NCBI GenBank assembly: GCA_964510205.1
Contig: CAZEBW010000004.1
Location: 3,638-67,637, forward strand
Source of the DNA: an uncultured Anaerolineae bacterium
Lineage (GTDB): Bacteria > Chloroflexota > Anaerolineae > VGOG01
Reading direction: 5' to 3'
DNA length: 64,000 bases
Shown here: positions 6,386 to 43,332 of the stretch, one piece after another
How the letters are laid out: every line of letters begins with the position of its first letter
Position numbering within the stretch: the first letter of the stretch is position 1
The notes under the pieces: model-generated
What the model saw: only the letters and a program-made list of their open reading frames with translations
Database searches by the model: none
What the model was told of the DNA's origin: nothing
Made by a program: the position numbers and the translations under genes

Positions 6386-6475
6386 TGTGTCATTGCGAGG
6401 AGCGGAGCGACGAAGCAATCCCCTACGCACATTGGAGATTGCTTCGGGCGCACACACCGCGCCCTCGCAATGACA
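6386..6475. repeat. Palindromic repeat element, copy 1 (TGTCATTGCGAGGAGCGGAGCGACGAAGCAATC ... GATTGCTTCG ... CCTCGCAATGACA)
   Basis: 37-nt core identical to a second copy at 42157-42238; long terminal inverted repeat gtcattgcgagg / cctcgcaatgac. Confidence 0.7.
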
Positions 6476-6586
6476 TTTGCCCTAGAACTGAAACGCACAT
6501 CTCTCCAAATCGCTTTTTGCGTTGAATCCGACTATCGTGTATAATAAGGCAGTGTGTCCTTTACCACCTGAAGAGGAGGTCAATAA

Positions 6587-6739
6587 GTGATACCATTTCT
6601 GTCACGTGAAGAAGGACAGGGGCTCATTGAGTATGCCCTGATCATCGTCTTGGTAGCCATAGTCGTCACTGCCATCTTGCTGTTGCTGTGGGACAAGATA
6701 TACGTCTTGCTGAACCAGTTTATCAACTTCATTAGCTGA
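6587..6739 (+). CDS. Flp/Fap family type IVb (Tad) pilin, 50 aa; below the ORF-track length cutoff
   Basis: GTG start 8 nt after RBS aagaggagg. Translation VIPFLSREEGQGLIEYALIIVLVAIVVTAILLLLWDKIYVLLNQFINFIS carries the Flp signature G-x-x-x-EY-ALI plus a hydrophobic helix. Confidence 0.6.
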   Translation: MIPFLSREEGQGLIEYALIIVLVAIVVTAILLLLWDKIYVLLNQFINFIS

Positions 6740-6923
6740 CTCGTCGTCTTCGTGCACTCGACCTGACATTTGCCGTGTTTTTTCTTGCTTCAGTGGATCC
6801 AGATTCTGAGCAGAGCGGACCTTCGCGCCATTCGGCTGCGTGCGCTCAGGCCCGTGCTGATCCGGCCGCAATGACAGGCATGGGGGCCGCCTCTGCTGGA
6901 AATCCTGGCAGGCCAGGGGAAAC

Positions 6924-7628
6924 TTGACCGCTTTAGATTTGGTGCAGGGAATCAAAAGAGGTCTCCTGGATTTGCTGTTCCCCCCTCGCTGTGCGAGCTG
7001 TCGAGAGGTGGGGAGTTTGCTCTGTGCCAAGTGCCTCGATGAGTTCGAGTTGATTGAACCGCCCCTCTGCCCCCGCTGTGGTCGCCCCAGGTCCAACGGT
7101 CGCCTTTGCCCCCTTTGCCAACGCGGCCCGCTGCGAATAGACGGTGTTCGTGCTGTGGCCTATTTTGATGGAACCTTGCGCGATACCATTCACCGCTTCA
7201 AGTACTCAAACCTGCGGGATCTGGCCATCCCCTTGGGCAAGCTGATGGGCGACTATTGGGAGAAGAGCCCCCTTCCGGCTGACATCATTGCCCCCGTGCC
7301 CTTGCATCCAGCCCGACTGCGTGAGCGCGGCTACAATCAGGCGGCGCTCCTGGCCAGAGAGTTGGGGAAAAGCATCGGGTTGCCGGTCGTAGAGCACAGC
7401 TTGGTGCGCGTGCGGGCCACTCGCCCCCAGGTGGAGTTGGGTGCGCTGGAGCGCAAGGAGAACGTTCAGGACGCTTTTCGCTGCCCGAACGCCGAGCTGG
7501 GGGGCAAGCGAATCCTGTTGATTGACGACGTGTGCACCACCGGCGCCACGTTGGAGGCTTGCAGCATCGCCTTGCAGCAGGTCGGCGCTCGTTCCGTTTG
7601 GGCCTTCACCTTAGCCAGGGCCAGATGA
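6924..7628 (+). CDS. comF: ComF family protein (ComFC-like zinc-finger + phosphoribosyltransferase domain)
   Basis: N-terminal C4 cluster (CASC...CAKC...CPRCG...CPLC) and PRTase P-loop LIDDVCTTGATL. Confidence 0.75.
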   Translation: MTALDLVQGIKRGLLDLLFPPRCASCREVGSLLCAKCLDEFELIEPPLCPRCGRPRSNGRLCPLCQRGPLRIDGVRAVAYFDGTLRDTIHRFKYSNLRDLAIPLGKLMGDYWEKSPLPADIIAPVPLHPARLRERGYNQAALLARELGKSIGLPVVEHSLVRVRATRPQVELGALERKENVQDAFRCPNAELGGKRILLIDDVCTTGATLEACSIALQQVGARSVWAFTLARAR

Positions 7629-7742: not shown

Positions 7743-8288
7743 ATGCAGTTGATCATCCAGGGTAAGAACATTGACGTGACCGATCGCTTGGAGGAGTACA
7801 TTGAGAAGAAAGTGGGCAAGCTGGACCGCTATCTGCCCACCATAAGCGAGGCGCGGGTAGAGCTGGCTGTTGAGGACACCAAGAGCGCTAAGGATCGCCA
7901 GGTAGCGCAGTTGACCGTGCGGAGCAAGGGCACATTTTTGCGGGCCGAAGAGAGAACTGCTGATATGTTCTCCTCGATTGACGTTGTTACGGACAAGATG
8001 TACCGCCAGATCGTTCGCTACAAGGGCAAACGCTATGGCCGAGGTCGCGGGCCAGGTGAGATGCCGCCAGTGGAGGACTTCGCATTTGAAGAGGAAGAAG
8101 AATCGTCTCGCATCGTCAGAACCAAGCGTTTCCAGTTGGCTCCCATGGATGCAGAAGAGGCCATCGAGCAAATGGAGCTTCTGGGCCACGACTTCTTCCT
8201 GTTCTTCAATGTTTACAACAATGCCATAAACGTCGTCTATCGGCGTAAGGATGGCAACTACGGGCTGCTTGAGCCGGAGCTGGCGTAG
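7743..8288 (+). CDS. hpf: Ribosome hibernation promoting factor, long form
   Basis: 181 aa; N-terminal MQLIIQGKNIDVTDRLEEYIEKKVGKL and a C-terminal dimerisation extension. Confidence 0.85.
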   Translation: MQLIIQGKNIDVTDRLEEYIEKKVGKLDRYLPTISEARVELAVEDTKSAKDRQVAQLTVRSKGTFLRAEERTADMFSSIDVVTDKMYRQIVRYKGKRYGRGRGPGEMPPVEDFAFEEEEESSRIVRTKRFQLAPMDAEEAIEQMELLGHDFFLFFNVYNNAINVVYRRKDGNYGLLEPELA

Positions 8289-14903: not shown

Positions 14904-16418
14904 TCAGCTCTGGGCGATCAAAATGGGGGAAGCCCAAGTCAAGTCATCCTTATTACGCATTGCCAGCTCTCGCCGGGCATCCAGCAGTGCCAGTTCAGGG
15001 CTGCCGTGCTGGAGCATAGAACGATAGAACGCCAGTGCCATTTCCTTGGCGCTCACTGCCGGCACTGACCACCTGTAGCCCAAAACAGACGGCACCCCTG
15101 ATTGGATAATTCCATCAGCGATACCCAGGTAGTCATCGTCCAGCAAATCAACCGGGCTGCCGGTACGAGTGCCCTCGCAGCACGTCAGGTGAAACAAACG
15201 GGTGTCAGAATCTTCCAACAGCCATCTCAGCTCATTTCCGGTCATTGGCTTTATATTCCCTGACCGGTTGCTGTCTTCCCAGAAGAACAATCTGCTCTGT
15301 TCCGGAGACCCCTCGTGAAAGACTCCGTGACCAACATAATGCACGATGTGATGCTTACACCCACGGAGCATTTCTTGCACTGCACTGTATGTAGCTGCTT
15401 CGGTTCTGACATGAGTCAAATCCAACCAGTTCAGTGGCGACAGCAAATCCACCAACTCTTCTCCGATTTTGTCAATCAGATCAATGCGTGGCTCAGTGTT
15501 GGACACGAGCAGTAGAACACGCAGGTTCTCGCCTGAACTGGCGAGACGTCGTATGAGTTCAGCAGAGATGGGTTCACGCCTCGTCACTACGCCTCGAATT
15601 TGGCGGACCATTGGATGGAGCAGTGTAAGGTAATCACCAGCCTCATCGGAAAAGATGAACTCCAGTGGCAATCCTGCCAGATCTCGGGTGGATTCAAACA
15701 CGAGGTGCAAGTATTGGTTCATTTGCGTCCTACCGAGTGCTCGGTGATACCCGTTGAGTACCGCAGAGTGCTGTTCGAACAGCAGGCGGTATAGCTCCCG
15801 TCCCACGTCTTTGATCAGAAAGCGGCGGTCTGCTGTGCTCATCATGCGTTCGCTTCCCCAGCGTGCAAAACGTGGAGCGTCGAGGCTTAGTGGATTGACA
15901 GAGGTGTATGTGAAGCGGATGTTGCCACGGCCCCGCACAAGAAGTCGCTGCCCTGGCTCTAGCGAGATTGTAATTTCGCACTCTTGGCTCGGCTCAAAGA
16001 CCGGCAATTGCCATTTCAATGACCTACTGATCACGCTATCCATCACTTTAACCACATCTTCTATCATGGTCTTTGGGAGGTACTCGGCTACAAGTCGCCG
16101 TCCAGTTGCATCAGGTTCCAGGGCGCGCCTCATCGTGTCAGGGGTACCATAGCCGGTGATAATGACAATCGGGAGCCCAGGGAATCGTCGTTTAAGCTCA
16201 GCAGCTAGATCAAGGCCTTCTAGGTTGCCTTCATCTGTCTCGTCCAAGCGCATGTCAAGTAGGGCTGCGTCGAAATGCTCTCGGTCAGACAAATCCAGGG
16301 CTCGCGCAACACTGGCAGCCGTTTTGGTTGCGTAGCCCTCGTCAATCAAGAGTTGTGAAAGGGTCACTCGCCAGTCAAACAAATCATCTACGATAAGCAC
16401 CTGGATTTGTTTAGTCAT
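14904..16418 (-). CDS. Response-regulator receiver fused to CHAT (caspase-like) protease domain
   Basis: REC: ILIVDDL...FDAALLDMRL...ITGYG...YLPKT. CHAT: IVHYVGHGVFH (catalytic His) and LFHLTCCEGT (catalytic Cys), C-terminus ALLDARRELAMRN...WASPILIAQS. Confidence 0.75.
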   Translation of the reverse strand: MTKQIQVLIVDDLFDWRVTLSQLLIDEGYATKTAASVARALDLSDREHFDAALLDMRLDETDEGNLEGLDLAAELKRRFPGLPIVIITGYGTPDTMRRALEPDATGRRLVAEYLPKTMIEDVVKVMDSVISRSLKWQLPVFEPSQECEITISLEPGQRLLVRGRGNIRFTYTSVNPLSLDAPRFARWGSERMMSTADRRFLIKDVGRELYRLLFEQHSAVLNGYHRALGRTQMNQYLHLVFESTRDLAGLPLEFIFSDEAGDYLTLLHPMVRQIRGVVTRREPISAELIRRLASSGENLRVLLLVSNTEPRIDLIDKIGEELVDLLSPLNWLDLTHVRTEAATYSAVQEMLRGCKHHIVHYVGHGVFHEGSPEQSRLFFWEDSNRSGNIKPMTGNELRWLLEDSDTRLFHLTCCEGTRTGSPVDLLDDDYLGIADGIIQSGVPSVLGYRWSVPAVSAKEMALAFYRSMLQHGSPELALLDARRELAMRNKDDLTWASPILIAQS

Positions 16419-17205
16419 GGCTGCTATCCGTGGGAGTTTCTATGGCTTTGATCACAGGGAGTGTGATCGCTATCGTCGTGCCGTGGCCAATCTCAGTATG
16501 TTTTACACTAATCTCTCCACCAAACCTGGCAAGTATCAAATGCGCTAACCAGAGACCCAGGCCCTTGTTGGTCCCGGTTGACGGAATCGGACCCTGAAAA
16601 AGATCGGCAAGAATGAGTTGCGGTATCCCTGTTCCGTTATCTGCAATCTCTACTCGCACTGTGTTGTCCGCGTCCACGTACTGGGTATGGATGTCAATAT
16701 GTCCGGGTTTTTTGCTTGTTGCTTGGATCGAGTTTTCGAGCACCGCCCGGAAAACCTCCGCGAGCAAGTGGCTATCAGCACGCACGGGAGGGACATCCTC
16801 TGGAAAATCAAAACTCACCCGTACTGTCTTGGAAGTGTGGCTAGCAGAAAGTTCTTCCCAGACCTCATACAGCAGTGAGTTTACGTCTAAGGGCATAGGC
16901 GGCTCACTCGGCTCTCTGAGTACTTCGACGGCGGCACTTAATTCGCTCAAACTGCTAATGGTCTTTTCTATGGCTGTGACCAGGTCGAGGGCGGCTCTAT
17001 CGTTGCTATTGATGTATTCCTTAAGACGACCGACTCGAACTCCCAGCAACCCAGTCAAGTTGGAGAGCTGGTGCAGTAATGCAGCAGAAGCCATCCCCAG
17101 TGCAATGAGGCTGGCCTCCTCCCCGTGGCTACGGTTAGGATGTGCACTTTCTTGCGGTAGGGGTGGATTTGGTCTCTGACTTTCCCGGTCATTTGGTGGA
17201 CTCAT
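16411..17205 (-). CDS. Cytoplasmic sensor histidine kinase (DHp + HATPase_c, no TM or sensor domain)
   Basis: H-box AALLHQLSNLTGLL; N, G1 (ADNGTGIP) and G2 (GLGLWLAHLI) boxes. Confidence 0.75.
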   Translation of the reverse strand: MSPPNDRESQRPNPPLPQESAHPNRSHGEEASLIALGMASAALLHQLSNLTGLLGVRVGRLKEYINSNDRAALDLVTAIEKTISSLSELSAAVEVLREPSEPPMPLDVNSLLYEVWEELSASHTSKTVRVSFDFPEDVPPVRADSHLLAEVFRAVLENSIQATSKKPGHIDIHTQYVDADNTVRVEIADNGTGIPQLILADLFQGPIPSTGTNKGLGLWLAHLILARFGGEISVKHTEIGHGTTIAITLPVIKAIETPTDSSHD

Positions 17206-17241
17206 TTGTCGGATTCTCCCAAGCGCGGCGCGTCCTTCAGT

Positions 17242-18768
17242 TCACTCCTGATGAATCAAGATAGGCGACAACCAGGTTGGATCGTTTCTGTCCATAGCGG
17301 CCAGCTCGCGCCTTGCGCTCCAGAGGGCGAACTCCGGCCCCCCTTGCTCCAATAAGGACTGGTAGAAAGCCAACGCCAGCCGACGGGCTCCATCATCTGA
17401 CACAGGCCAGCGGAAGCCCAGCACCGAGGGTGCGCCGGCCTGCGCGACAGCGTCGGCCAGCCCAAGGAAATCGTCATCCAGCAAAGCAGCCTGAGCGCCG
17501 CTGGCTGTGCCATAGCAACTGCTCATGTACACCAGACGTGCTTCCGAGCGCCTGAGTAGCATCTTTAGTTCGGTTGCTTTCATCGGCATGACGCCACCTT
17601 GCTTATTCTCCTGGGCCCAGAAGTATAGGCTGCTATCTTCAGGGGACTCGGTCCTGTACGAGCCATGTCCTGCGTAATGTACAATGTCGTAACTGGGCTT
17701 CCCCAACTCTGATCTTACGCGCTCATACGTGGCGCGCTCCGTGGGGATGAGTTTAACACTGACAGGGATGCAGTCCTGGCTCTTTAAGTACTCGTACAGT
17801 GCCTGCGCCTCGGCATCTACGCCGTCTATTGGAGGCTGTGTGTTAGAGGCGATAATCAGAATTCGCAATTCCTGAGTCAGTGCCAGCAGCGAAGGGGAAA
17901 TCAGGCTGCGTTTCGGGGTAGCATTGTATAGAAAACGGGCGAGGGGGTGTTGAAGTACCAGGTACTCTGGAGGATCATCCGAGCGCATAAATTCCAATGG
18001 TAGTCTGAGAAATTCCCTGGGCGTCTCAAAAAGCATTGAAAACGACTGGCTCTTGGCGCGCGCTTCCACATAGGCTTTTTCGGCTTCAGGGTGCTCAGTA
18101 AATATGTCACGCCACAGACTGTGGCCGATCTCCCCAACCTGGAAACGCAAATTGCTCACGTCTCTTCTGGCGAGTTCTGTCCGCCTTGCATAGCGTTCGA
18201 GTGCCACACGCAACACTTTCCACGAGCGCAAGGAACAGACGTGGCGACCGCGCGCCCTGATCACCAGAGGCTGTCCGGCTGTGAGTGATAGAGATAGCTG
18301 GGTAGCATCACCTGTCTTCTCAAACCTCGGCTTGGTTGCCTCCTGGCGTGCTTTCGCGATAGTCTCCAGAACTTGTTCAGCCACATCCGGGGTTTTTTCG
18401 ATGAAGTCAACTACTCCGAGATATCGAATCGCGCGTACAATTTGCTTGGTTCTCGGGTAGCGTGTGAGCAGGATGACGCGAACCCGCGGATTGAGGGCGC
18501 GGAATGCCATCGCCAGGCTCAATCCGCTTTCGTCCTCTTCATCATCTCCGTGCAGGCGCACGTCAATGAGAGCAAAGTCGAACGGTTCTTGCGTGACAGC
18601 AACCAGGGCTTGTTCCTCGTTGGCCGCTGACCGGACGGTGTATCCTTCATCGGAAAGTCGCCCTGCTAACGTGGTACAGAAATCGGCATGGTCATCTACT
18701 ATCAGAATCTTGCACATTGCTACCCTCTTCATCAACTGTCTGATGGGACGCTCCGGGTCATCCAGCAT
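17242..18768 (-). CDS. Response-regulator receiver fused to CHAT protease domain (second copy)
   Basis: REC: KILIVDDHADF...FDFALIDVRL...LTRYP...IEKT. CHAT His IVHYAGHGSY and Cys LVYMSSCYGT; start may be the internal M (MCKILIV). Confidence 0.75.
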   Translation of the reverse strand: MLDDPERPIRQLMKRVAMCKILIVDDHADFCTTLAGRLSDEGYTVRSAANEEQALVAVTQEPFDFALIDVRLHGDDEEDESGLSLAMAFRALNPRVRVILLTRYPRTKQIVRAIRYLGVVDFIEKTPDVAEQVLETIAKARQEATKPRFEKTGDATQLSLSLTAGQPLVIRARGRHVCSLRSWKVLRVALERYARRTELARRDVSNLRFQVGEIGHSLWRDIFTEHPEAEKAYVEARAKSQSFSMLFETPREFLRLPLEFMRSDDPPEYLVLQHPLARFLYNATPKRSLISPSLLALTQELRILIIASNTQPPIDGVDAEAQALYEYLKSQDCIPVSVKLIPTERATYERVRSELGKPSYDIVHYAGHGSYRTESPEDSSLYFWAQENKQGGVMPMKATELKMLLRRSEARLVYMSSCYGTASGAQAALLDDDFLGLADAVAQAGAPSVLGFRWPVSDDGARRLALAFYQSLLEQGGPEFALWSARRELAAMDRNDPTWLSPILIHQE

Positions 18769-19639
18769 TCCCCCAATTTGCCTGTATGTAACTCGTTGTC
18801 GCCTTTACGTCCAGGCTGCGAGTCGAATTGCCAATACGCACCCAGAACTTGTGAACATCGCCCGTCGCCAGGAACACCGGCTTTGGGCTTTTTTCAATCG
18901 CAACGATGCAGACGTGTTTACCATCTATGGGTTCGAAGCGTGTGCGAATGTATGGCATATATTCTAGACCCACATAGGTCTTGACAATATCCGTCAATGC
19001 CAATTGAAACCCATCGGTATTTGGCTTGCGCAGAGTTTGTAAGTCTTTTTCAATACCTAGCACCGTGCCATCGTCAGCGACGCCAATGAGTAGGGTCCCA
19101 CCCTTGCTGTTCAACATTCCTGTGATTGCCACGGCGATCGTTTCCTGCAGGCTCTTGTTAGTTGTGTTTTTCTTGAAATCCCAGCGGATACTGGACTTGA
19201 ATTCCACGTGGTCATTTTCACCTTGGGCAATCAAATTGAGTACCGAGCGTTCAAATGCGCGGTTCACGTACTCCGGCAGTTGGTCTACTTCAGATTTTTC
19301 CAGGAAGCCAAACGCTGGTGATACTCCCTCGCGATCAGGTTGAAGGACCTCCCTCACCATCCTGACGTTTGCATAGCCGGTCAAGATAATGATGGCCACA
19401 TGGGGGTCCTTCTCTCTGATCTCGCGCATAAGCAAGATGCCATCTTGGTTGTCCTCGTCGGCCTCGTCCAAGCGCACGTCCAGAACTGCGACGTGAAAAC
19501 GCTCGGCGTCCAACATTTGCAGAGCCTCAACTCTGCTGGATGCCGAGCGTACTTCATAGCCTTCGTCTGACAAAAGGCCCGACAATGTTGCGCACACGTC
19601 GGGCAGGTCATCTACTACGAGAACGCGACCTTTGTACAT
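18758..19639 (-). CDS. Response-regulator receiver fused to an AlbA_2 (Schlafen-like) domain
   Basis: Likely start MYKGRVLVVDD. REC with VAVLDVRL; C-terminal ENDHVEFKSSIRWDFKKN...TLLIGVADDGTVLGIEKD matches the AlbA_2/Schlafen N-domain signature. Confidence 0.65.
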   Translation of the reverse strand: MYKGRVLVVDDLPDVCATLSGLLSDEGYEVRSASSRVEALQMLDAERFHVAVLDVRLDEADEDNQDGILLMREIREKDPHVAIIILTGYANVRMVREVLQPDREGVSPAFGFLEKSEVDQLPEYVNRAFERSVLNLIAQGENDHVEFKSSIRWDFKKNTTNKSLQETIAVAITGMLNSKGGTLLIGVADDGTVLGIEKDLQTLRKPNTDGFQLALTDIVKTYVGLEYMPYIRTRFEPIDGKHVCIVAIEKSPKPVFLATGDVHKFWVRIGNSTRSLDVKATTSYIQANWGNAG

Positions 19640-19665
19640 GGCACTCCTGCCGATTGCATCTTGTC

Positions 19666-20067
19666 TTATCGTGCCAACACTTCCTGTACTATCTTGACCA
19701 ACTCTTCGGTCTGGGTTTTCGGGATATAGTTCGCTACAAGTCTCCGGCCCTGCGTATCTGGCTCCATTGCCCGTCTCATGGTATCCGGCGTGCCGTAGCC
19801 TGTGATCATTACGACTTCGGTAGTGGGCCAATGTTGTTTGATCTCATCCGCCAGGTCCAGCCCCTCGGTGTTACTCTCGTCCGTCTCGTCCAGGCGCATG
19901 TCCAGTACTGCCAGATCAAAATGGCTGGTTTTGAGCAACTCCAATGCCGCAGGCGAAGACTCGGCAACCTGGACATCGTATCCCGCGTCCTCCAACAAGC
20001 CACCGAGCGTCGTGCGCCAATCTAGCAGGTCATCTACCACCAGAATCTTCTGCCGTTTGTTTGTCAT
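19666..20067 (-). CDS. Single-domain CheY-like response regulator (paralog of the REC of the 14904 REC-CHAT)
   Basis: ILVVDDL...FDLAVLDMRLDETDESNTEGLDLADEIK...ITGYGTPDTMRRAMEPD...YIPKT, almost identical to the REC of 14904-16418. Confidence 0.8.
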   Translation of the reverse strand: MTNKRQKILVVDDLLDWRTTLGGLLEDAGYDVQVAESSPAALELLKTSHFDLAVLDMRLDETDESNTEGLDLADEIKQHWPTTEVVMITGYGTPDTMRRAMEPDTQGRRLVANYIPKTQTEELVKIVQEVLAR

Positions 20068-20459
20068 TCTCTTACTCCTTCGTGCTTACCATGGCGATTA
20101 CGCGGCACCTGTGGAAACAGAATGATCTCCCTGACCTGCTCGAAGAGATCCTCGCTTCCGAAAGACTTGGCGAAGTAGCGCATGGCTCCCAACCGGTAGG
20201 CCGCAAGCGCCTCTTGGGTCGTGGGTTGTACTGTTGTTACGACCACCCGCTTATCAGAGTATTTCTCAGCGATGACTGCAAGCACGTCCAGGCGGCGGGA
20301 GCTTGCGATGACCAGGTCGAACTGATCCGCTTCGAGTTCAGCGAGTGCTGCCTTGGTGTCAGGCGCAACGACGATTTCAAACTTGTTGAGATCGCTCTTG
20401 GCGAACTCAATCCAGCGAGGTTCGTCGTCAATGATCAGAATGCGAGTTTTCATGATCAC
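20064..20459 (-). CDS. Atypical receiver-like protein (pseudo-receiver; phospho-acceptor Asp apparently replaced)
   Basis: ILIIDDEP present, but the expected D in FDLVI-A-SSRRL is Ala. Confidence 0.55.
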   Translation of the reverse strand: MIMKTRILIIDDEPRWIEFAKSDLNKFEIVVAPDTKAALAELEADQFDLVIASSRRLDVLAVIAEKYSDKRVVVTTVQPTTQEALAAYRLGAMRYFAKSFGSEDLFEQVREIILFPQVPRNRHGKHEGVRE

Positions 20460-23400: not shown

Positions 23401-24193
23401 CCTCGTCTTGCAAGATTATGGGCGCCAGCACCATTGAGCGCTCGACGATGTCTGACGACAAACCGGGGACAAACTGAGGGTGCTTGACCGCATCCGGGAC
23501 GAGTTCTGATTGCTTGGTTTGGGCTACCCACCCGGCCAACCCGACCCCTTGGGCGAACTGCTGTCGTGCGATGCCTGCTGACGAGGCAGCTTCCAACGCT
23601 AGGTCACCGCTCTTATCCACTAGAAAAACGCTGATGTGCTTGCAATCCAGCACTCTTTCTGCGGCTTGCATAATGCGTGCGAAAAGATCGGCACGGCGCA
23701 ATTCGGAACTGATCAAGAGGCTCACTGCGTTCAGGGTCGCCAGATCCTGAATTCGACGCTGCGTGGCAGCCACTTGAGCGGAAGAACTCTCAATCAGCGC
23801 CTTCTCGAAATCAGTGAAATCCCTTGCCTCACGGGTATAAACGTCAAGCACACCAACGATTTTCCTTTTTACTCGTAGTGGTACCACCATAGCCGACTTC
23901 AGTCCCATAGCGGTGGTTTCTGGTTTGTACTTCCAGCGAGCATCGGTGTCAACGTCTGTCACGACGATTGCCTGTTCAGTCGCAAAAACGTCAGACGCGA
24001 CACTGGGCTCATCCAGGCGCAGAAACGCATCGCGAACGTATTCCTCTGACAACTCTGTCGCTGCAGCGATCCGGAGGGTTTCCCCCGTTTCATCGGCAAG
24101 CCAGATACAGGCCGGCAGTCCCAGAGTCTGGCTTATGGTCTCCACCACGGGTTGAAAGAACTGCTTTTTATCAAGTTCTTGAGAGGGGATCAT
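20456..24193 (-). CDS. Large cytoplasmic multi-GAF-domain sensor histidine kinase (1245 aa)
   Basis: At least 5-6 GAF-like modules, coiled coil, H-box ALQHRVNN, HATPase_c (DTGPGIP...GLGLWLSR); no TM helices. Confidence 0.8.
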   Translation of the reverse strand: MIPSQELDKKQFFQPVVETISQTLGLPACIWLADETGETLRIAAATELSEEYVRDAFLRLDEPSVASDVFATEQAIVVTDVDTDARWKYKPETTAMGLKSAMVVPLRVKRKIVGVLDVYTREARDFTDFEKALIESSSAQVAATQRRIQDLATLNAVSLLISSELRRADLFARIMQAAERVLDCKHISVFLVDKSGDLALEAASSAGIARQQFAQGVGLAGWVAQTKQSELVPDAVKHPQFVPGLSSDIVERSMVLAPIILQDEVIGVISADMDGLSGFDEHDQMLLEAVASQSAVAVHNAQLLEQATSRAAVLQRLHQIGGRILSAELSAQGLREVLRQVARSARSVLGADLVDVYQYVEADDRYIMPPILEGERRDPTVVKDEIFKDDVVVKVVEGGEPLYSPDTQTDTLLTGPFTVERPERPEKRFVVREGILSSAAVPLEAAGETVGAMFVNYRSRQPFTPEQRGAIELFANQAATAIYNARVYEEAQTSLQERIDDIRALQNLYALIGTASLEDLLEQIAEQAARLTPAKYTSIWLLDERTRELRFGARNKRDETPTRTLTRLPLDETSINGHVALSRKTYLCNDIKSDPYYKEWFEEVQSELTTPLIHRDRVIGTLNLESTQIGAFTDDHMRLVEALAGAAAVAIKSARLYKAIQAVNEVGQTLTSGIRLKQDEILELIYEQARELTGAQDMYIALYDEETGMIRFGLATEHGEQVHYDPRKADMEKRGKTEEVILTKKPILHRTQVESKAWYGQPGHQEFIGRVQPSYLGVPMVTGEKVLGMIAIYDWEREQAYDEQDLQVISSVANQAAIALDNATLYYEINQQLARRVQALAALNEVGQALTSGIRLKQDEILELIYEQARELTGAQDMYIALYDEETGMIRFGLATEHGEQVHYDPRKADMEKRGKTEEVILTKKPILHRTQVESKAWYGQPGHQEFIGRVAKSWIGVPMVLENRVLGVIAIYDWEREQAYDEQDLQVISSMANQAAIALENARLYEEARSEVIATKRLATLGTAIAALQHRVNNTFNIIVPNVTRLRKRVDMSNDTIAEILDIIERNARYTSDIIARIQEPLREVEDQDVDINAVLSDVVGKVREQWRTDPIRSTIEHTLDLDQSLPQIRAPIGQIAEVFYNLVDNAYRAMKAGGQLAVTSRLTDSNICVRVQDTGPGIPLQVQQRLFVKPVPSKEPGGGAGLGLWLSRLMLQSIGGDAIIEETDPTGTTMLVQIPAPGTGKEV
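21209..22290. repeat. 540-bp tandem duplication (2 copies) of one GAF module inside the histidine kinase gene, with a ~320-nt 100% identical core
   Basis: 21343-21662 equals 21883-22202 at nucleotide level (the + strand ORFs 21359-21604 and 21749-22144 translate identically); flanks ~75-85% identical. Confidence 0.75.
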
Positions 24194-38814: not shown

Positions 38815-38888
38815 GCGCCGCGACGTCATGTGATGAAGCCGCCGCGACGTCATATGATGAAGCGGCCTCGACGTCATATGATTAAGCG
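38815..38888. repeat. 24-nt tandem repeat x3 (GCCGCGACGTCATRTGATGAAGCS) with internal GACGTC / CATATG palindromes
   Basis: Read directly between the remnant ORF and the GT-C gene. Confidence 0.8.
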
Positions 38889-40990
38889 GCCTCGTCAATC
38901 AGGTGGGTGAAGATGGTGTAATCGGTGTCCATCTCTGCCTCAGCTCGCCAGTAGAGGGTCAGGTGGATCTCCTCGTCTGGCCTAAGCTCGACTTTGTCCA
39001 CTTTGTATCCGATCAGAGTGACCTTGTTATCCAGGTTGAAATCCAACGGGTTATCAATCGCTACCTCCCGACGTTCTCGCGGGAGCATCTTCAACTGACC
39101 GATGACGACGCTTGGGGGATCAAGTTTTGAACCAGTGGTGGGGTCGTAGTGCCCCACCTCAACTCGCACGAGGCTGGGCGCTTGGGCGTCCTCGCTGATG
39201 GGCAGCCGATAGGCGTCGGCGATGATCCCCCCTGGGGCCCACAAGCTGGTGGGATACGAACCCCAACCGGGATAGGTGTCCTCAGATCCCACTAGTTCGC
39301 CCCCGCGCCCCAGCAGGTGGATAAACAGGTAGTAGTCCTTCTCCTCCATCTCCGCCAGCCCCTGCCAGTAGAAAGTGACGCCCAGCGTCTCGCCCGGCCT
39401 GACCGTCTCTCTATCTAGTTTGAAACCGAGCAGTCGGATTTTCTCTCCAAAATCGTGGACCACCCCTGGCGGGACCTCGCTGGGGGAGACGATGGGCGGC
39501 CTGGCGTAGGCAGGGTGGATGTAGACAAATGGACAGAGGGCGGCGAAGGCGAACATGGCCAGACCTATCACCGTCACCAGGATGTTAACGTATCTCCCAG
39601 ATACCAGTTGGCTCAGGCCCAGCATCAGCAGGACGGATATGGCGGAGATGGCGGGAAATAGCAGCCGTCCCTGGCTGGCGGGCGTCGTCCACGTCCAGCG
39701 AACTAGTCCCGCGAAGACGATGCCCAGCCAGAGGATGAGGACAAAGAAACCAGGTTTTTCCCGTTTCACAGTACTTCCCTGGGCGTTTGGAGTGTTCGTA
39801 AACTGGTGTGTTTTGGGTCCAAAGGATGCGAAAAACCTGGTTTCTGACAACCAACGCCGTCTCACAAACCAAATCCCCAAGCCCACCAGGGCCAGCAAGC
39901 TTACCACGTCCAGGATGGCGTAGGCGGCGGGCGCAACCAAGATGCTGAACCAGCCAAACAGCGCCCAGAAAGACATGCGCAGGCCCCGAAACTCGCCCCA
40001 CAGTTCTGACAGATTCGATGGCCCACTATCTCGGCCCACCACGGCCAGCATGGCGTTGAGGCCGGTCGGGTCCCCGTAAAGCTGCCAATTCCTGACGTAC
40101 CACCAGCCAGCCACCGCCAGCACTACGGCAAGGACGATCAGCCCCCCGATCAACGGCCTCGCCGACCGGCGGCGGTAGGCTTGCACGACGAGGACGACGG
40201 CGGTCAAGATCAACAGGCCCAGGCCGCTGAGCTTGGAGAGGCAGGCCAAACCTAGGACGAGGCCCAACAACACGTAATACGCAATACGCAATACGAACAG
40301 GCGGCGTGTTGCGTACTGCGTATTGCGTATTTCGTATTGCGTATTGCGTACCAACAGAAGCAGCGTCAGTGACGATAGGAAGACCACTAGATTGTCGTTG
40401 TTGATGGAGCTGCTGATGAACAAGAACTGCGGGATGAAGGCGTTGATGGCTGCGGCGCCGAGGGCGAGGTGTTCGCGGTCAGGGAAGACCTCCAGAGCGA
40501 GTCTATGCGTCAAGAACACGGTGCCTGCCCCCAGGAGCACCGACAGCAGGCGGACGAGGTGCACCGCCAAAGCTGTGCCCTGAAAGGGGAAACTCTCCCG
40601 CCGGGTATGGACGATCACGTTCTTGTTGCCTGCATCCAGCGGCGTGCCGACGTTGCGCTGGGGATTGTACCAGAGTAGGTCCTCCGCCTCGCTGGTATCG
40701 CTCCAGAAAGTGGTCAGTGCGCCGATCAGGTAATACAGAGGCGGCTGGCTGCCCTCCTGCTCCCACAATCCCGGCTCTTCGGGGTTCTGCACCGGCAGTC
40801 CCTTCCCATCAGCAAGATGCTTGATGAAGAAGTAGTGGTAGATCTCATCGGGCGCCTCGAAGATGGGCGTGACCAGGCTGTAGGTGATGCCCAGGGCGAT
40901 GAACGTGGTTAGAATTAGGGTTATGGCCCAGTGTTGTCTCATAGTGCAAAGTCCTACGTCCCACGTCCTACGTCTCACGTCCGAAGTCAT
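38882..40990 (-). CDS. PMT/ArnT-like GT-C glycosyltransferase (GT39/GT83-like), paralog 1, with 2 C-terminal beta-domain repeats
   Basis: ~12 TM N-terminal domain with loop-1 motif FEAPDEIYHY; C-terminal repeats ...LTLYWQ...DYxxFxHL...; N-terminus and an internal site encoded by heptamer arrays. Confidence 0.6.
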   Translation of the reverse strand: MTSDVRRRTWDVGLCTMRQHWAITLILTTFIALGITYSLVTPIFEAPDEIYHYFFIKHLADGKGLPVQNPEEPGLWEQEGSQPPLYYLIGALTTFWSDTSEAEDLLWYNPQRNVGTPLDAGNKNVIVHTRRESFPFQGTALAVHLVRLLSVLLGAGTVFLTHRLALEVFPDREHLALGAAAINAFIPQFLFISSSINNDNLVVFLSSLTLLLLVRNTQYEIRNTQYATRRLFVLRIAYYVLLGLVLGLACLSKLSGLGLLILTAVVLVVQAYRRRSARPLIGGLIVLAVVLAVAGWWYVRNWQLYGDPTGLNAMLAVVGRDSGPSNLSELWGEFRGLRMSFWALFGWFSILVAPAAYAILDVVSLLALVGLGIWFVRRRWLSETRFFASFGPKTHQFTNTPNAQGSTVKREKPGFFVLILWLGIVFAGLVRWTWTTPASQGRLLFPAISAISVLLMLGLSQLVSGRYVNILVTVIGLAMFAFAALCPFVYIHPAYARPPIVSPSEVPPGVVHDFGEKIRLLGFKLDRETVRPGETLGVTFYWQGLAEMEEKDYYLFIHLLGRGGELVGSEDTYPGWGSYPTSLWAPGGIIADAYRLPISEDAQAPSLVRVEVGHYDPTTGSKLDPPSVVIGQLKMLPRERREVAIDNPLDFNLDNKVTLIGYKVDKVELRPDEEIHLTLYWRAEAEMDTDYTIFTHLIDEAA
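40268..40347. repeat. In-frame inverted heptamer arrays (CAATACG x3 / CGTATTG x5) inside a GT-C CDS
   Basis: taatacgcaatacgcaatacgaacaggcggcgtgttgcgtactgcgtattgcgtatttcgtattgcgtattgcgta; encodes RNTQYEIRNTQYATRR. Confidence 0.85.
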
Positions 40991-41035
40991 TGACTTAGGA
41001 CCTCGGACTTAGGACCTAGGACTATTCTCACTTTG
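40921..41035. repeat. Inverted heptamer arrays (GTCCYAC x4 / GGACYTAG x4) spanning a GT-C stop/start junction
   Basis: gtcctacgtcccacgtcctacgtctcacgtccgaagtcattgacttaggacctcggacttaggacctaggac. Confidence 0.85.
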
Positions 41036-43332
41036 CTCAACAGGATTCGGTTGCCCATCAGCCGGCCGTCCTGGTCGAGGAGGTCTAAGCGATTCCCGGT
41101 CTCAGCCAGGTAGAGCCCCACCTCGATCTCGTAGACGTCGGGAGGGGCGTCGGGGGCGATGTCTAGCTCGTATTGGTCCACGACGATTTGCCCCCTGGCC
41201 CAGGCGGAAGTGGAAGGCTGCGGCTGGCGGTCCGCTCCTGCCCAGATCTGATCTCCCTCTCTCAGCAGGTGGACGAAGACGGTGTAGGCGTCCCTCATCT
41301 CGGCCAGGCTCTGCCAGTACAGAGTAAGGTGGATGGCTTCGCCCGGCTCGGCCTTTCTGCGGTCCATCTCGTAGCCCACCAGGGCGATCTGGCCCCCAAA
41401 GTTGAAATGCACCGGATTGGGCAGCCCGGTTTCGGACCTGGGCAAGACCCCGATTTTCCCGAAGCGCACGTTATCTCCCGCAAGTTCTCCATTGGCCCCG
41501 TACACGGGTAGGCGTTCGCCCGTCGCAGCGTCGTAAGGCCCCACCTCCAGTTGGGCCGAACTGGGGGCGTAGGTCGTCTCTGGCAGCGTCAGGGTGTAGG
41601 CGTCCGCGATGGCGTCGCCGGCCTGCCACAGCGTGGTAGGGAAGCTGCCCAGTCCGGGGAAGGTGTTCCTCTGGGCTATGACGAGATCGTTTTCGTCCAG
41701 CAGGTGAACGAAGACGGCGTAGTCCCGGTTCATCTCGGCCAGGGATTGCCAGTACAGGGTGACGGTTAGCGAATCGCCGGGTTGCAGGTTGTAGGTTGTA
41801 GGTTGCAGGTTGTAGCCCAGCAGCTTCATCACTCCGCCGAAGTTCATATCCAGGCGATTTGGGATGGCCTCGATCTGTTCGGGAGAGAGCAGGGGCGGCC
41901 TGGCGTAGGCTGGGGCGATGTAGGCCACGGGACAGATGCAGGCGAACACGAACATCGCTCCGGCCAGCAGGGCTGTGGCCTTGCCTCGCCAGCGGGTGGG
42001 AATGAGTTGTAACCATCCCAGCAGGGGCAGGATGGCGAGGGACGCAGTGGCTGGGAAGAGGTGCCGCCCAGAGGGTGCAAAGACCCACTGCAGCCAGCGC
42101 AGCAGGGCGGCGAAGACCAGTAAGCTCCACAGCAGGAGCAGGGCTAAGCCCTGCCATGTGTCATTGCGAGGAGCGGAGCGACGAAGCAATCTCCTCCTTG
42201 CGGCTTGGGGATTGCTTCGCTTCGCTCGCAATGACACATCCGTGAGTTTGGTCCCGTTTCTAACGACTAGAACTAACAGCCCCAGGGCGCCCAGGCGCAC
42301 CACAATTCGCAGGACGGTGTAGATCCAAGGGTGGACGTGGACATTGCCCCAGCCGAAGGCGGCCCAAAAGGACAGCTCCATCTGAGAGAACTCGTGGATC
42401 AACTCGCCGAGGGTGAGCTGCGGCCGGCCGGGGCCCACGATGGCTTGGTGGATCTGCACCCCCAGCGGGTCGCCGTGCAATCGCCAATTCAAAGTATACC
42501 ACCATCCGGCTACGATGGCAACAACAGCAAAGACGATCAGGCATGCCTTGAGAAAGGCCCACCCAGAGCCTCTGCGCCAGGCGGCCATGGCGATGGCCAC
42601 GACCGCAGCAGGCAGCAGGGCCAGCGCGCTCGCTTTGGTGATGAGGGCCAATCCCACGGTCAGCCCCAGCCAGACCAGACGGCGGGTGGAGAGGCCCCTT
42701 CTCCTCAGGCGGACCATGAGCCACAGGGCCAGGGTGCACAGGGCCGACACTGCGCTGTCGTTGCTCACTGCACTTGATATAAAGATGAACTGCGGATTGA
42801 AGGCCACCAGGCCCGCTGCACCAGCGGCGAAAGAACGTTGCCGGGGGAACAACTCCAGCGCAATCAGATAGGTGGCCAAGACGGTGGTTGCTCCCCAGAG
42901 CACCGACACCAGGCGGGCCATACGAACGGCCAACACCGCGCCGCGATAGGGGAAGCGTTCCTCGTTGGTGTGAAGCACTCGGTTTTTGTTGTCGTTGACC
43001 GTGCCAGGCGCGCTGTAGCCCCAGAAAGGATTGAGCCACGCCAGGTTCTGCCAATCGTCGTCTTCGATCCAGAACGTAGCCAAAGCCGCCGTGACATAAT
43101 ACAGTGGGGGCTGGGTGGCCTCCTGTCTCATCAGAGGCTGCGTTTGCGCCAGGCTCTGCACCGGCAGACCTTTCCCGTCGCCCAGCCATTTGACGTAAGG
43201 GTAATGCCACAACTCGTCGGGCTTCTCGAAGAGGGGCGTGGCTGCGTTGTAGGCGATGCCCAGGGCGAAAAACGCGGTTAGGATTAGGATGATGGCCCAA
43301 TGTTGTTTGATGGTCCGAGGTCCCCTATCCAT
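40987..43332 (-). CDS. PMT/ArnT-like GT-C glycosyltransferase, paralog 2, with 3 C-terminal repeats
   Basis: FEKPDELWHYPY loop motif; contains in-frame GGTTGTA repeats (TYNLQPTTYNLQP) and the palindromic element (SLRAKRSNPQAARRRLLRRSAPRNDT). Confidence 0.6.
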   Translation of the reverse strand: MDRGPRTIKQHWAIILILTAFFALGIAYNAATPLFEKPDELWHYPYVKWLGDGKGLPVQSLAQTQPLMRQEATQPPLYYVTAALATFWIEDDDWQNLAWLNPFWGYSAPGTVNDNKNRVLHTNEERFPYRGAVLAVRMARLVSVLWGATTVLATYLIALELFPRQRSFAAGAAGLVAFNPQFIFISSAVSNDSAVSALCTLALWLMVRLRRRGLSTRRLVWLGLTVGLALITKASALALLPAAVVAIAMAAWRRGSGWAFLKACLIVFAVVAIVAGWWYTLNWRLHGDPLGVQIHQAIVGPGRPQLTLGELIHEFSQMELSFWAAFGWGNVHVHPWIYTVLRIVVRLGALGLLVLVVRNGTKLTDVSLRAKRSNPQAARRRLLRRSAPRNDTWQGLALLLLWSLLVFAALLRWLQWVFAPSGRHLFPATASLAILPLLGWLQLIPTRWRGKATALLAGAMFVFACICPVAYIAPAYARPPLLSPEQIEAIPNRLDMNFGGVMKLLGYNLQPTTYNLQPGDSLTVTLYWQSLAEMNRDYAVFVHLLDENDLVIAQRNTFPGLGSFPTTLWQAGDAIADAYTLTLPETTYAPSSAQLEVGPYDAATGERLPVYGANGELAGDNVRFGKIGVLPRSETGLPNPVHFNFGGQIALVGYEMDRRKAEPGEAIHLTLYWQSLAEMRDAYTVFVHLLREGDQIWAGADRQPQPSTSAWARGQIVVDQYELDIAPDAPPDVYEIEVGLYLAETGNRLDLLDQDGRLMGNRILLSKVRIVLGPKSEVLSQ
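42157..42238. repeat. Palindromic repeat element, copy 2, inserted in frame inside a GT-C CDS
   Basis: atgtgtcattgcgaggagcggagcgacgaagcaatc...gattgcttcgcttcgctcgcaatgacacat. Confidence 0.75.

What the first reader, a model, noticed from the sequence alone, without database searches (positions are those of the whole stretch)
6587..6739. Unannotated 50-aa Flp-family pilin gene below the ORF-track cutoff
A GTG-initiated ORF with a strong RBS encodes the Flp/Fap prepilin signature (G-x-x-x-E-Y-A-L-I followed by a hydrophobic helix). Small pilin genes are routinely missed; no tad/cpa genes are in this window, so the assembly locus must be elsewhere.
Basis: partly seen in the sequence, partly recalled or inferred. 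Interest (0 to 1): 0.5.

Follow-up and report, generated by a model that had tools for sequence, protein, structure and literature searches.

The report
Stand-alone Flp (Tad) pilin gene
This is a real, conserved 50-residue Flp-type pilin gene of an Anaerolineae bacterium, already present in public protein sets; it appears to be what is left of a pilus-assembly (tad) locus that close relatives still carry at this spot, in front of comF.

Summary
The ORF at 6587-6739 (+) is real: GTG start, GAGGAGG seven bases upstream, TGA stop. Its own Pfam Flp_Fap score is below the curated cutoff (19.4 vs 32.2 bits, E 9e-4). Family-level evidence is strong. There are 95 close homologues, nearly all 50 aa, several named Flp pilin. 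A family profile matches solved Caulobacter Tad pilins and tad-linked Chloroflexota Flp pilins (hhalign 99.1%). The processing site G10/QGLI-E15-Y16 is invariant. dN/dS is about 0.15, and promoter, ribosome-binding site and GTG are conserved. The exact protein is already in the NCBI-derived collection, so it is not unannotated.

The window has no tad genes or prepilin peptidase. More distant Anaerolineae have flp-cpaB-tadZ-tadA-tadB-tadC-comF-hpf. A nearer relative keeps cpaB-tadC directly before comF-hpf-LMWPc-GT2-GT2 and has its flp on another contig. The window's flp|comF junction therefore looks like a tad locus whose assembly genes were lost or moved.

Whether this genome has a tad locus elsewhere could not be tested. 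This is an ordinary member of a known family, with one small evolutionary point and a speculative link between Tad pili and DNA uptake.

The parts
6517..6522 (+). -35-like hexamer TTGCGT, 17 nt upstream of the -10 hexamer
   Evidence: Read. It lies in the block TTTTTGCGyTGAAyCCGACTATnGTGTATAAT, which is nearly invariant in 13 orthologous loci. The tool's promoter scan did not report it, because only 3 of 6 bases match TTGACA.
6538..6545 (+). Extended -10 element TGTATAAT (predicted promoter of flp)
   Evidence: GTGTATAAT is invariant in all 13 aligned orthologous loci, while synonymous sites of the gene itself are near saturation. Promoter function is inferred, not shown.
6573..6579 (+). Shine-Dalgarno sequence GAGGAGG, 7 nt before the GTG
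   Evidence: AGGAGGT is invariant in all orthologues.
6587..6739 (+). flp: 50-codon Flp/Fap-family prepilin gene (GTG start, TGA stop)
6587..6616 (+). Predicted leader peptide MIPFLSREEG (residues 1-10), cleaved after G10
   Evidence: The profile alignment to mature Caulobacter pilins places I14-E15-Y16 on mature residues 4-6. E8 and G10 are invariant, and L5, R7 and E9 are at least 90% conserved, in 40 sequences. Cleavage itself is inferred.
6617..6736 (+). Predicted mature pilin, 40 aa, about 4.56 kDa, with Glu at mature position 5 and Tyr at 6
   Evidence: AlphaFold2 gives pLDDT 90.4 with helices 7-33 and 35-49.
6740..6923 (+). flp-comF spacer: the place where relatives carry cpaB-tadZ-tadA-tadB-tadC
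   Evidence: No terminator found. No recognisable tad remnants. Relatives with tad genes at this position.
6924..7628 (+). comF-family gene (double zinc ribbon + phosphoribosyltransferase). The public call starts at 6972 (218 aa). It is the constant downstream neighbour of flp.
   Evidence: Synteny.
7743..8288 (+). hpf (ribosome hibernation factor), part of the conserved comF-hpf-LMWPc block used as the synteny anchor

Best explanation
The ORF is a functional Flp-type (Tad, type IVc) prepilin gene.

Shown:
- It is a conserved protein-coding gene under strong purifying selection.
- It has a conserved extended -10 promoter-like box, a conserved Shine-Dalgarno sequence and a conserved GTG start.
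- It is homologous to Flp pilins that head verified tad loci in other Chloroflexota, and to the structurally solved Caulobacter Tad pilin.
- In related Anaerolineae the position just upstream of comF-hpf is occupied by a tad cluster.

Inferred:
- The 50-aa precursor inserts into the membrane.
- An aspartic prepilin peptidase of the TadV/CpaA type removes the 10-residue leader after Gly10.
- This gives a 40-residue, roughly 4.6-kDa, single-helix pilin with Glu5 and Tyr6.
- A CpaF/TadA ATPase with a TadB/TadC platform, encoded outside this window, polymerises it into a thin Tad pilus.
- Its orphan position between rtcA and comF is historical. The ancestral order was flp-cpaB-tadZ-tadA-tadB-tadC-comF-hpf, and in this lineage the five assembly genes were deleted from, or moved out of, that locus, leaving flp directly in front of comF.
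For: Gene reality:
- ORF, Shine-Dalgarno sequence and start codon.
- 95 homologues, nearly all exactly 50 aa.
- Mean dN 0.11, dS 0.71, ratio 0.155. For codons 2-34, pN is 0.039 against pS 0.336.
- Promoter box, AGGAGGT and GTG are invariant across orthologues.

Family:
- Pfam Flp_Fap is the top hit, and 40 of 40 relatives hit it.
- Profile against solved Tad pilins 8u2b/8u1k: E 6.6e-5, in register with the mature N-terminus.
- hhalign against tad-linked Chloroflexota Flp: prob 99.1%, E 1.4e-18 over 49 columns.
- E8, G10, Q11, G12, E15 and Y16 are invariant. The leader is removed on maturation, yet it is almost identical to that of the tad-linked pilins (LSREEGQG vs LPREEGQG). This argues for continued recognition by a peptidase.
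- Predicted single helix, pLDDT 90.

Locus history:
- Every orthologue lies directly upstream of comF-hpf-LMWPc.
- L059 is Pfam-verified as Flp, RcpC/CpaB, REC+ParA, T2SSE, T2SSF, T2SSF, ComF, HPF in that order. L029 and L057 have the same order.
- L113 (ComF 62% identical) has cpaB-tadZ-tadA-tadB-tadC-comF-hpf-LMWPc-x-GT2-GT2, matching the window's downstream order.
- L111 has tadB-tadC-comF-hpf.

Precedent for unlinked pilin and machinery:
- MAG W31_52 has the tad cluster on contig DAOULT010000156 without any flp, and an flp on contig DAOULT010000093 with no tad gene within 10 kb.
- 28 of 35 Chloroflexota flp loci with at least 8 kb on both sides have no tad gene nearby.
- PMC4877987 reports the conserved pilA-cpaB-cpaE-cpaF-tadB-tadC cluster of Anaerolineales, and also clusters lacking the preceding pilA.
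Against: - This protein's own Pfam score (19.4 bits) is below the gathering cutoff (32.2), and the match covers only model positions 1-27 of 46. NCBIfam gives no hit.
- The C-terminal 16 residues (WDKIYVLLNQFINFIS) differ from tad-linked relatives. There is no Gly-Pro after the hydrophobic core. The tail has four aromatic residues and one Ser/Thr/Gly, against one aromatic and 4-9 Ser/Thr/Gly in relatives.
- No Tad ATPase, platform protein, CpaB, TadE/F pseudopilin or A24 peptidase is found in 64 kb.
- None was found within 10 kb of any orthologue.
- A search for CpaF homologues on contigs with the same lengths as the orphan-flp contigs found none among the best 120.
- A related locus (L115, ComF 70% identical) has neither flp nor tad genes in front of comF, so loss of the whole system does occur in this group.
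Confidence: 0.7

Rival explanations
1. Retained relic with a changed role. After the assembly genes were lost from the locus (and possibly from the genome), the Flp-like protein persisted as a small single-pass membrane protein that is no longer polymerised into a pilus. It might, for example, modulate another membrane complex.
For: - No tad genes lie in the window or near any orthologue.
- The C-terminal half has diverged in composition and lost the Gly-Pro of tad-linked relatives.
- The Pfam match is limited to the N-terminal 27 model positions and is below the cutoff.
- L115 shows that the tad system can disappear from this position altogether.
- Purifying selection shows that the protein has a function, not which one.
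Against: - The cleaved leader and the G/XXXXEY site are the most conserved part of the protein, and are near-identical to those of tad-linked pilins. That is hard to explain without a prepilin peptidase and assembly.
- C-terminal divergence with higher dN is normal for the exposed part of pilins (pN 0.206 against 0.039).
- Unlinked flp and tad loci co-exist in a related genome.
Confidence: 0.15
2. Competence-pilus subunit. The adjacency to comF is functional rather than only historical. Flp is transcribed with comF, and the Tad pilus of these Anaerolineae serves DNA uptake, as the Flp pilus does in Micrococcus luteus.
For: - flp, comF, hpf and LMWPc are on the same strand, with no detectable terminator after flp.
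- flp stays next to comF even when the upstream neighbour changes (L109).
- In relatives comF starts 0-56 nt after tadC (L111 0, L029 11, L059 14, L113 56), which looks operonic.
- Flp pili are required for transformation in M. luteus (PMC4322843).
Against: - There is no experimental or expression data.
- comF-hpf is a block of its own that also occurs without flp or tad (L115).
- The flp-comF spacer varies from about 80 to more than 500 nt and is poorly conserved, so comF may have its own promoter.
- Other tad-linked loci (L051, L038, L076) have no comF hit in the stored flanks.
- No paper in the searched library mentions both ComFC and Tad pili.
Confidence: 0.13
3. Chance ORF or mis-call. 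The real feature would be on the opposite strand, such as the 164-aa ORF at 6602..7096 (-), or the region would be non-coding.
For: - Many ORFs of this size occur by chance at 58.6% G+C.
- A gene caller applied to identical DNA (Logan contig L110) called the antisense 117-aa ORF and not flp.
Against: - Codon-position pattern of substitutions is 21/13/40, and dN/dS is 0.155 in the + frame.
- The ORF length is exactly conserved at 50 aa in nearly all of 95 homologues.
- Shine-Dalgarno sequence and GTG are conserved.
- Homology to verified pilins.
Confidence: 0.02

Closest known systems
Flp/Fap pilins of Tad (type IVc) pili: Aggregatibacter actinomycetemcomitans Flp1 and Caulobacter crescentus PilA (PDB 8U1K; also 8U2B)
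   Same: - Small size: 50 aa precursor, 40 aa mature, against 45 aa mature in the solved chains.
- G/XXXXEY processing site with Glu5 and Tyr6 of the mature protein, followed by a hydrophobic helix.
- The family profile aligns in register with the solved pilins.
- Pfam PF04964 is the best hit.
   Different: - Below Pfam's gathering score.
- Very short leader: 10 residues.
- The C-terminal tail is aromatic-rich rather than Ala/Ser/Thr/Gly-rich.
- Not inside a tad locus.
- The host is Anaerolineae (phylum Chloroflexota), not a proteobacterium. No secretin (RcpA) gene appeared in the related tad loci whose genes were listed.
Flp ('pilA') genes heading the pilA-cpaB-cpaE-cpaF-tadB-tadC cluster of Anaerolineales (PMC4877987); here L059, L029, L057, L028, L030, L038, L051
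   Same: - Same phylum.
- Leader and core are nearly identical (xLPREEGQGLVEYALILVLVAIVVIA against FLSREEGQGLIEYALIIVLVAIVVTA).
- Same length class (49-55 aa).
- hhalign prob 99.1%.
- Same position relative to comF-hpf in L059, L029 and L057.
   Different: - The five assembly genes between flp and comF are absent.
- The tail lacks the LLGPxIxxxFS motif.
- Upstream of flp is rtcA, not a LuxR-type two-component pair.
Micrococcus luteus Flp (Mlut_18170), major subunit of the competence-related Flp pilus (PMC4322843)
   Same: - Flp prepilin of a Gram-positive bacterium with a G/XXXXEY site.
- Mature mass is about 4.4 kDa there and about 4.56 kDa predicted here.
- The prepilin peptidase is encoded away from the tad genes.
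- There is a link to DNA uptake: experimental there, only gene adjacency to comF here.
   Different: - The M. luteus flp lies inside the tad-2 cluster.
- Its precursor is 77 aa.
- Its function was shown by knockouts. Nothing is shown experimentally here.
TadE/TadF pseudopilins (minor pilins of Tad systems)
   Same: N-terminal prepilin-like motif and hydrophobic helix. Examples lie beside flp in L030, L038 and L076.
   Different: They are about 140-175 aa and carry G/XXXXEF, with a globular C-terminal domain. The window protein is 50 aa with EY, so it is a major-pilin type, not a pseudopilin.

Membership tests
Flp/Fap prepilins (Pfam PF04964; definition as quoted in PMC4322843) | Small precursor of about 50-80 aa | tested here: met
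   50 aa. Nearly all of the 95 homologues are 50 aa.
Flp/Fap prepilins (Pfam PF04964; definition as quoted in PMC4322843) | [quoted passage not shown] | tested here: met
   G10/QGLI-E15-Y16, then A17-L34. G10, E15 and Y16 are invariant in 40 sequences. This is the only such motif in six frames of the window.
Flp/Fap prepilins (Pfam PF04964; definition as quoted in PMC4322843) | Score at or above Pfam's curated gathering cutoff for PF04964 (32.2 bits) | tested here: not met
   19.4 bits, E 9e-4, model positions 1-27 of 46 only. It is still the top family. All 40 relatives hit it at E <= 0.01. The tad-linked relative L059 Flp scores 32.4 bits.
Flp/Fap prepilins (Pfam PF04964; definition as quoted in PMC4322843) | Sequence homology to pilins shown to form Tad pili | tested here: met
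   The family profile against PDB 8u2b and 8u1k gives E 6.6e-5, in register with the mature N-terminus. hhalign to Flp genes of Pfam-verified tad loci gives prob 99.1%, E 1.4e-18.
Flp/Fap prepilins (Pfam PF04964; definition as quoted in PMC4322843) | Single extended alpha-helical fold | tested here: inconclusive
   The AlphaFold2 model has pLDDT 90.4, with helices 7-33 and 35-49. Foldseek against the PDB returned no match for this 50-residue helix, so the fold could not be compared formally.
Flp/Fap prepilins (Pfam PF04964; definition as quoted in PMC4322843) | Gene located within a tad locus ('almost always', PMC4322843) | tested here: not met
   There are no tad genes in 64 kb or within 10 kb of orthologues. 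The homologous position in relatives is a tad locus. In this sample of Chloroflexota, 28 of 35 flp loci are unlinked, so the criterion is weak for this phylum.
Flp/Fap prepilins (Pfam PF04964; definition as quoted in PMC4322843) | Cleavage by a TadV/CpaA-type prepilin peptidase and assembly into a filament by TadA/TadB/TadC | not testable with these tools
   This needs the full genome and biochemistry. Only conservation of the leader and cleavage site speaks for it.
TadE/TadF pseudopilins (Pfam PF07811) | About 150-aa protein with a G/XXXXE[FS] motif and a C-terminal domain | tested here: not met
   50 aa with an EY motif and no TadE hit. Compare the TadE-like ORFs of L030, L038 and L076.
Archaeal class III signal-peptide pilins (Pfam PF04021) | Significant match to the class III signal-peptide model | tested here: not met
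   E 2.3, 8.7 bits against a cutoff of 23.7.

The most novel reading that the evidence does not exclude
In Anaerolineae the Tad pilus is a DNA-uptake (competence) pilus whose genes form one operon with comF (flp-cpaB-tadZABC-comF-hpf). In the window's lineage the pilin gene alone has stayed under that regulation in front of comF, while the machinery moved elsewhere. That would extend Flp-dependent natural transformation, so far shown in Micrococcus luteus, to Chloroflexota. It would also explain why flp remains glued to comF across all orthologues.
Probability: 0.13. Interest if true: 0.5.

Novelty: already known. Interest (0 to 1): 0.15.

Why it matters
It matters little on its own. The gene is an ordinary Flp-family pilin, the identical protein is already in public data, and 90%-identical orthologues carry the name 'Flp family type IVb pilin'.

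Three modest points are useful:
1. It is a worked example of a short pilin gene that curated HMM cutoffs miss (19.4 vs 32.2 bits). One gene caller replaced it with an antisense ORF.
2. Among related Anaerolineae the region in front of comF-hpf exists in four states: flp+tad, tad only, flp only, and neither. This documents how pilin and assembly genes become unlinked. It also warns against inferring presence or absence of pili from a single locus in MAGs.
3. The tight tadC-comF junction in several families is a testable hint that Tad pili and DNA uptake are connected in this phylum.

Tried and rejected
- NCBIfam scan of the protein: no family.
- Rfam on the whole window at gathering thresholds: nothing, so there is no known RNA element around the gene.
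- Foldseek of the AlphaFold2 model against the PDB: zero matches. A 50-residue helix is too small for this method.
- Terminator between flp and comF: none. The consensus scan found nothing on the + strand. The spacer folds no better than shuffles (z = +1.18). RNAalifold over 11 orthologous 3' regions gave no consensus pair. A semi-conserved T-run about 40 nt after the stop is not preceded by a convincing stem.
- Remnants of tad genes in the flp-comF spacers of the window and six orthologues: a relaxed tblastn (E <= 10) gave only noise.
- Exact look-up of the window protein among gene positions: not on record. The source contig could therefore not be walked. The Logan contig with identical DNA is only 2.4 kb.
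- Locating a tad cluster on the same contigs as orphan flp genes: I searched CpaF homologues and compared contig lengths (92,483; 150,664; 115,686; 43,350 and others). There was no match among the best 120, all of which are 80-92% identical to the query. This is uninformative, not negative.
- Second Flp or TadE-like gene in the window: none in six frames.
- The REC-domain proteins at 14904-19831 as possible TadZ: rejected. They are REC+CHAT and REC+Schlafen/AlbA_2, without a ParA/MinD ATPase domain.

Full report
**1. The observation**

The ORF is exactly where stated: 6587..6739 on the + strand, GTG start, 50 codons, TGA stop. The product is MIPFLSREEGQGLIEYALIIVLVAIVVTAILLLLWDKIYVLLNQFINFIS. 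A TAA sits immediately before the GTG, so this is the only possible start. GAGGAGG lies at 6573-6579, seven bases upstream.

The true spacing is G10-QGLI-E15-Y16, which is the canonical Flp processing site G/XXXXEY as defined in PMC4322843. It is followed by the hydrophobic run A17-L34.

ORFs of this size are common by chance in this 58.6% G+C sequence, so the ORF alone proves nothing. The motif plus hydrophobic run, however, occurs only once in all six frames of the window.

**2. Is it a gene?**

Yes.
- A search of 5.8 billion proteins found 95 homologues at E <= 0.01. Nearly all are exactly 50 aa and 70-94% identical. They come from Anaerolineae/Chloroflexota MAGs and metagenomes.
- Across 15 orthologous DNA sequences, mean dN is 0.11 and mean dS is 0.71 (ratio 0.155). 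For codons 2-34, pN is 0.039 against pS 0.336. Variable columns fall 21/13/40 on codon positions 1/2/3.
- The GTG and AGGAGGT are present in every orthologue.
- An upstream block, TTTTTGCGyTGAAyCCGACTATnGTGTATAAT, is almost invariant, although synonymous sites in the gene are near saturation.
- In the window this block reads as TTGCGT (6517-6522), a 17-nt spacer, and the extended -10 TGTATAAT (6538-6545). The tool's promoter scan missed it because the -35 matches only 3 of 6 bases. Promoter activity is inferred.

The antisense ORFs (6580..6732 and 6602..7096) are by-products of the sequence. One gene caller nevertheless preferred such an antisense ORF on identical DNA (L110).

**3. Is it unannotated?**

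Not in public data. The identical 50-aa protein (P0001) is in the NCBI part of the collection, from one 92,483-bp contig. Orthologues are named 'Flp family type IVb pilin' (MGA9348748.1), 'pilus assembly protein' or 'pilus assembly protein Flp/PilA'.

**4. Family assignment**

- Pfam: Flp_Fap (PF04964) is the best hit, but at 19.4 bits (E 9e-4). That is below the 32.2-bit gathering score, and the match covers model positions 1-27 of 46 only.
- NCBIfam gives nothing.
- All 40 aligned relatives hit PF04964 (best E 1.4e-7).
- A profile of the family matches the solved Tad pilins 8u2b and 8u1k (Caulobacter PilA) at E 6.6e-5. I14-E15-Y16 falls on mature residues 4-6, which places cleavage between G10 and Q11.
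- E8, G10, Q11, G12, E15 and Y16 are invariant in 40 sequences.
- I extracted Flp genes that lie beside tad genes in other Chloroflexota. A profile-profile comparison of the orphan family with them gives probability 99.1%, E 1.4e-18, over 49 columns.
- AlphaFold2 predicts an almost continuous helix (pLDDT 90.4; helices 7-33 and 35-49). Foldseek cannot place so small a model.
- The mature product would be 40 aa, 4.56 kDa, with GRAVY 1.8. The processed M. luteus Flp is 4.4 kDa.

The one clear difference from tad-linked relatives is the tail. The window has WDKIYVLLNQFINFIS, with four aromatic residues and one Ser/Thr/Gly. Relatives have GPxIxxxFSxIxSGLxG, with one aromatic residue and 4-9 Ser/Thr/Gly. 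That divergence explains the truncated Pfam match. This part also evolves faster (pN 0.206), as is usual for the exposed part of pilins.

**5. Surroundings in the window**

Pfam on 40 ORFs gives the following map:
- ornithine cyclodeaminase, ligA, an RlmI-like methyltransferase, rtcA (-)
- flp, comF (double zinc ribbon + PRTase), hpf, LMW phosphatase
- two GT2 glycosyltransferases, TPR and Band-7 proteins
- a REC-CHAT / REC-Schlafen / GAF-kinase cluster
- an AlaRS-like protein, folC-like, GH99-like, lon, eno
- an O-antigen-ligase-like protein, four PMT_2-type membrane glycosyltransferases, two phosphodiesterases, and others

No T2SSE, T2SSF, RcpC, TadE or A24 peptidase is present. tblastn with CpaB, TadZ, TadA, TadB and TadC from two verified loci finds nothing in the window at E <= 1e-2, apart from generic receiver-domain similarity at 16104-16421. 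'No tad genes in this window' is therefore confirmed.

**6. Why is the gene here?**

Every orthologue examined lies directly upstream of comF-hpf-LMWPc, usually followed by HNH-GT2-GT2 (L001, L005-L008, L085, L103-L109). The upstream neighbour is usually rtcA but is FemAB in L109. The stable linkage is therefore to comF.

Related Anaerolineae show four states in front of comF:

| State | Gene order upstream of comF | Loci |
|---|---|---|
| A | flp, RcpC/CpaB, REC+ParA (TadZ/CpaE), T2SSE (TadA/CpaF), T2SSF, T2SSF (L029 has no cpaB hit) | L059 (Pfam-verified), L029, L057 |
| B | the tad genes but no flp | L113/L114 (ComF 62% identical; no Flp motif in 20.7 kb); L111/L112 (ComF 64%), where the contig starts just upstream of tadB, so only tadB-tadC are seen and the presence of flp cannot be judged |
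| C | flp only | the window and all its orthologues |
| D | neither (GT2 and a methyltransferase) | L115 (ComF 70%) |

- In state A, L059 comF begins 14 nt after tadC and is followed by hpf.
- In state B, L113 reads cpaB-tadZ-tadA-tadB-tadC-comF-hpf-LMWPc-x-GT2-GT2. This is the same downstream order as the window. In L111 comF starts at the base after tadC.

The simplest history is an ancestral flp-tad-comF-hpf locus from which the window lineage lost or exported cpaB through tadC. No tad remnants survive in the spacer. The direction of change is inferred, because no rooted tree was made.

**7. Is there an assembly system elsewhere?**

This could not be tested for this genome. The source contig is not in the positional index. 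A CpaF search combined with contig-length matching was uninformative.

Indirect support:
- The leader peptide is discarded on maturation, yet it and the cleavage site are the most conserved part of the protein and match those of tad-linked pilins.
- In MAG W31_52 the tad-comF cluster (contig DAOULT010000156) and an flp gene 66% identical to the window's (contig DAOULT010000093, in an unrelated neighbourhood) are unlinked within one assembly.
- 28 of 35 Chloroflexota flp loci with at least 8 kb on both sides have no tad gene nearby.
- PMC4877987 describes the conserved Anaerolineales pilA-cpaB-cpaE-cpaF-tadB-tadC cluster and notes clusters that lack the preceding pilA.

**8. Mechanism, with status of each step**

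- Shown: it is a conserved, selected coding gene with a conserved promoter-like box and ribosome-binding site, and it is homologous to Tad pilins.
- Inferred: transcription from the TGTATAAT promoter; membrane insertion; cleavage after G10 by an A24 peptidase; polymerisation by a CpaF/TadB/TadC machine encoded elsewhere.
- Possible: read-through into comF-hpf, since no terminator was found.

Rivals are a relic with a changed role (0.15), a competence-pilus subunit co-regulated with comF (0.13; precedent in M. luteus, PMC4322843; no paper in the library pairs ComFC with Tad pili), and a chance ORF (refuted).

**9. Verdict**

This is an ordinary member of the Flp/Fap family, already present and, in its orthologues, already named in public databases. 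'Unannotated' is not, and the location of the tad machinery remains open.

The added value is the comparative explanation of its orphan position, and a weak but testable lead on a connection between tad genes and comF. Interest 0.15.

Noticed in passing
window 6386-6476 and 42159-42245: A nested palindromic element of about 85-95 nt occurs twice, with a core of 30/30 identical bases. The outer arms are TGTCATTGCGAGG/CCTCGCAATGACA and the inner arms CGAAGCAATCCCC/GGAGATTGCTTCG. Copy 1 sits between the rtcA and flp promoters, is absent from all orthologous loci, and is flanked by the 11-nt direct repeat CATCTCTCCAA (6334, 6498). Copy 2 lies in frame inside the 781-aa PMT_2-type glycosyltransferase ORF 40987..43332 (-). 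There it encodes ...SLRAKRSNPQAARRRLLRRSAPRND... in a loop that its two paralogues lack or fill differently. It looks like a small mobile palindromic (MITE/REP-like) element that tolerates in-frame insertion.
   Followed up: partly
L059 7663-9350; L029 14179-15878; L111 1172-2815; L113 9012-10669: In several Anaerolineae families comF begins 0-56 nt after tadC, so the tad cluster and comF-hpf look like one operon. CpaF and ComF homologues also share contig lengths 68,957 and 16,862, which suggests more cases. No paper in the library mentions both ComFC and Tad pili.
   Followed up: partly
L002, L008, L103-L105, L107, L108 (downstream of rtcA, i.e. upstream of flp in locus coordinates; e.g. L103 3613-8699): In most orthologous loci rtcA is followed by a 1073-aa RAMP-domain protein, a roughly 292-aa protein without a Pfam hit, and a weak Cas6-like gene. 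This is a fused type III-like CRISPR effector module next to an RNA cyclase. The window has an RlmI-like methyltransferase and ligA there instead.
   Followed up: no
window 14904-24193 (- strand): A cluster of signalling proteins with unusual outputs: two receiver+CHAT-protease proteins (504 and 508 aa), a receiver+Schlafen/AlbA_2 protein (357 aa), a stand-alone HATPase_c protein (264 aa), and a 1245-aa histidine kinase with six GAF domains. Orthologous loci carry TIR/CHAT/EAD8 and nSTAND1/TCAD9 proteins at about the same place, which suggests a variable defence or conflict-system island.
   Followed up: no
L110 150-503 (= window about 6602-6955, - strand): On a Logan contig with DNA encoding an identical Flp, the gene caller annotated a 117-aa antisense ORF and not the 50-aa flp. 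This is a concrete case of a short pilin gene displaced by a spurious longer ORF.
   Followed up: yes
L009-L088 (GTDB Chloroflexota loci): Flp-like genes are mostly unlinked to tad genes in this phylum (28 of 35 loci with at least 8 kb flanks). They often occur as 2-4 tandem copies (for example L049, L052, L061, L063, L088). Several have a receiver-domain gene roughly 1.5-3.5 kb upstream.
   Followed up: partly
window 24229-25569 (- strand): A 446-aa protein matches only the catalytic core of class II alanyl-tRNA synthetase (PF01411 positions 2-426 of 552). The C-terminal editing and C-Ala parts of a full-length AlaRS are missing. It may be a truncated AlaRS paralogue.
   Followed up: no
window 38882-49234 (- strand): Four consecutive large membrane proteins (702, 781, 780 and 1103 aa). 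The first three are 45-51% identical paralogues. Pfam was run on the 702- and 1103-aa proteins, and both match PMT_2 (dolichyl-phosphate-mannose-type glycosyltransferases). They are flanked by an O-antigen-ligase-like gene (upstream of the 702-aa gene) and a lysyl-PG-synthase-TM-like gene followed by two phosphodiesterases (beyond the 1103-aa gene). L111 has similar PMT_2 genes after hpf.
   Followed up: no
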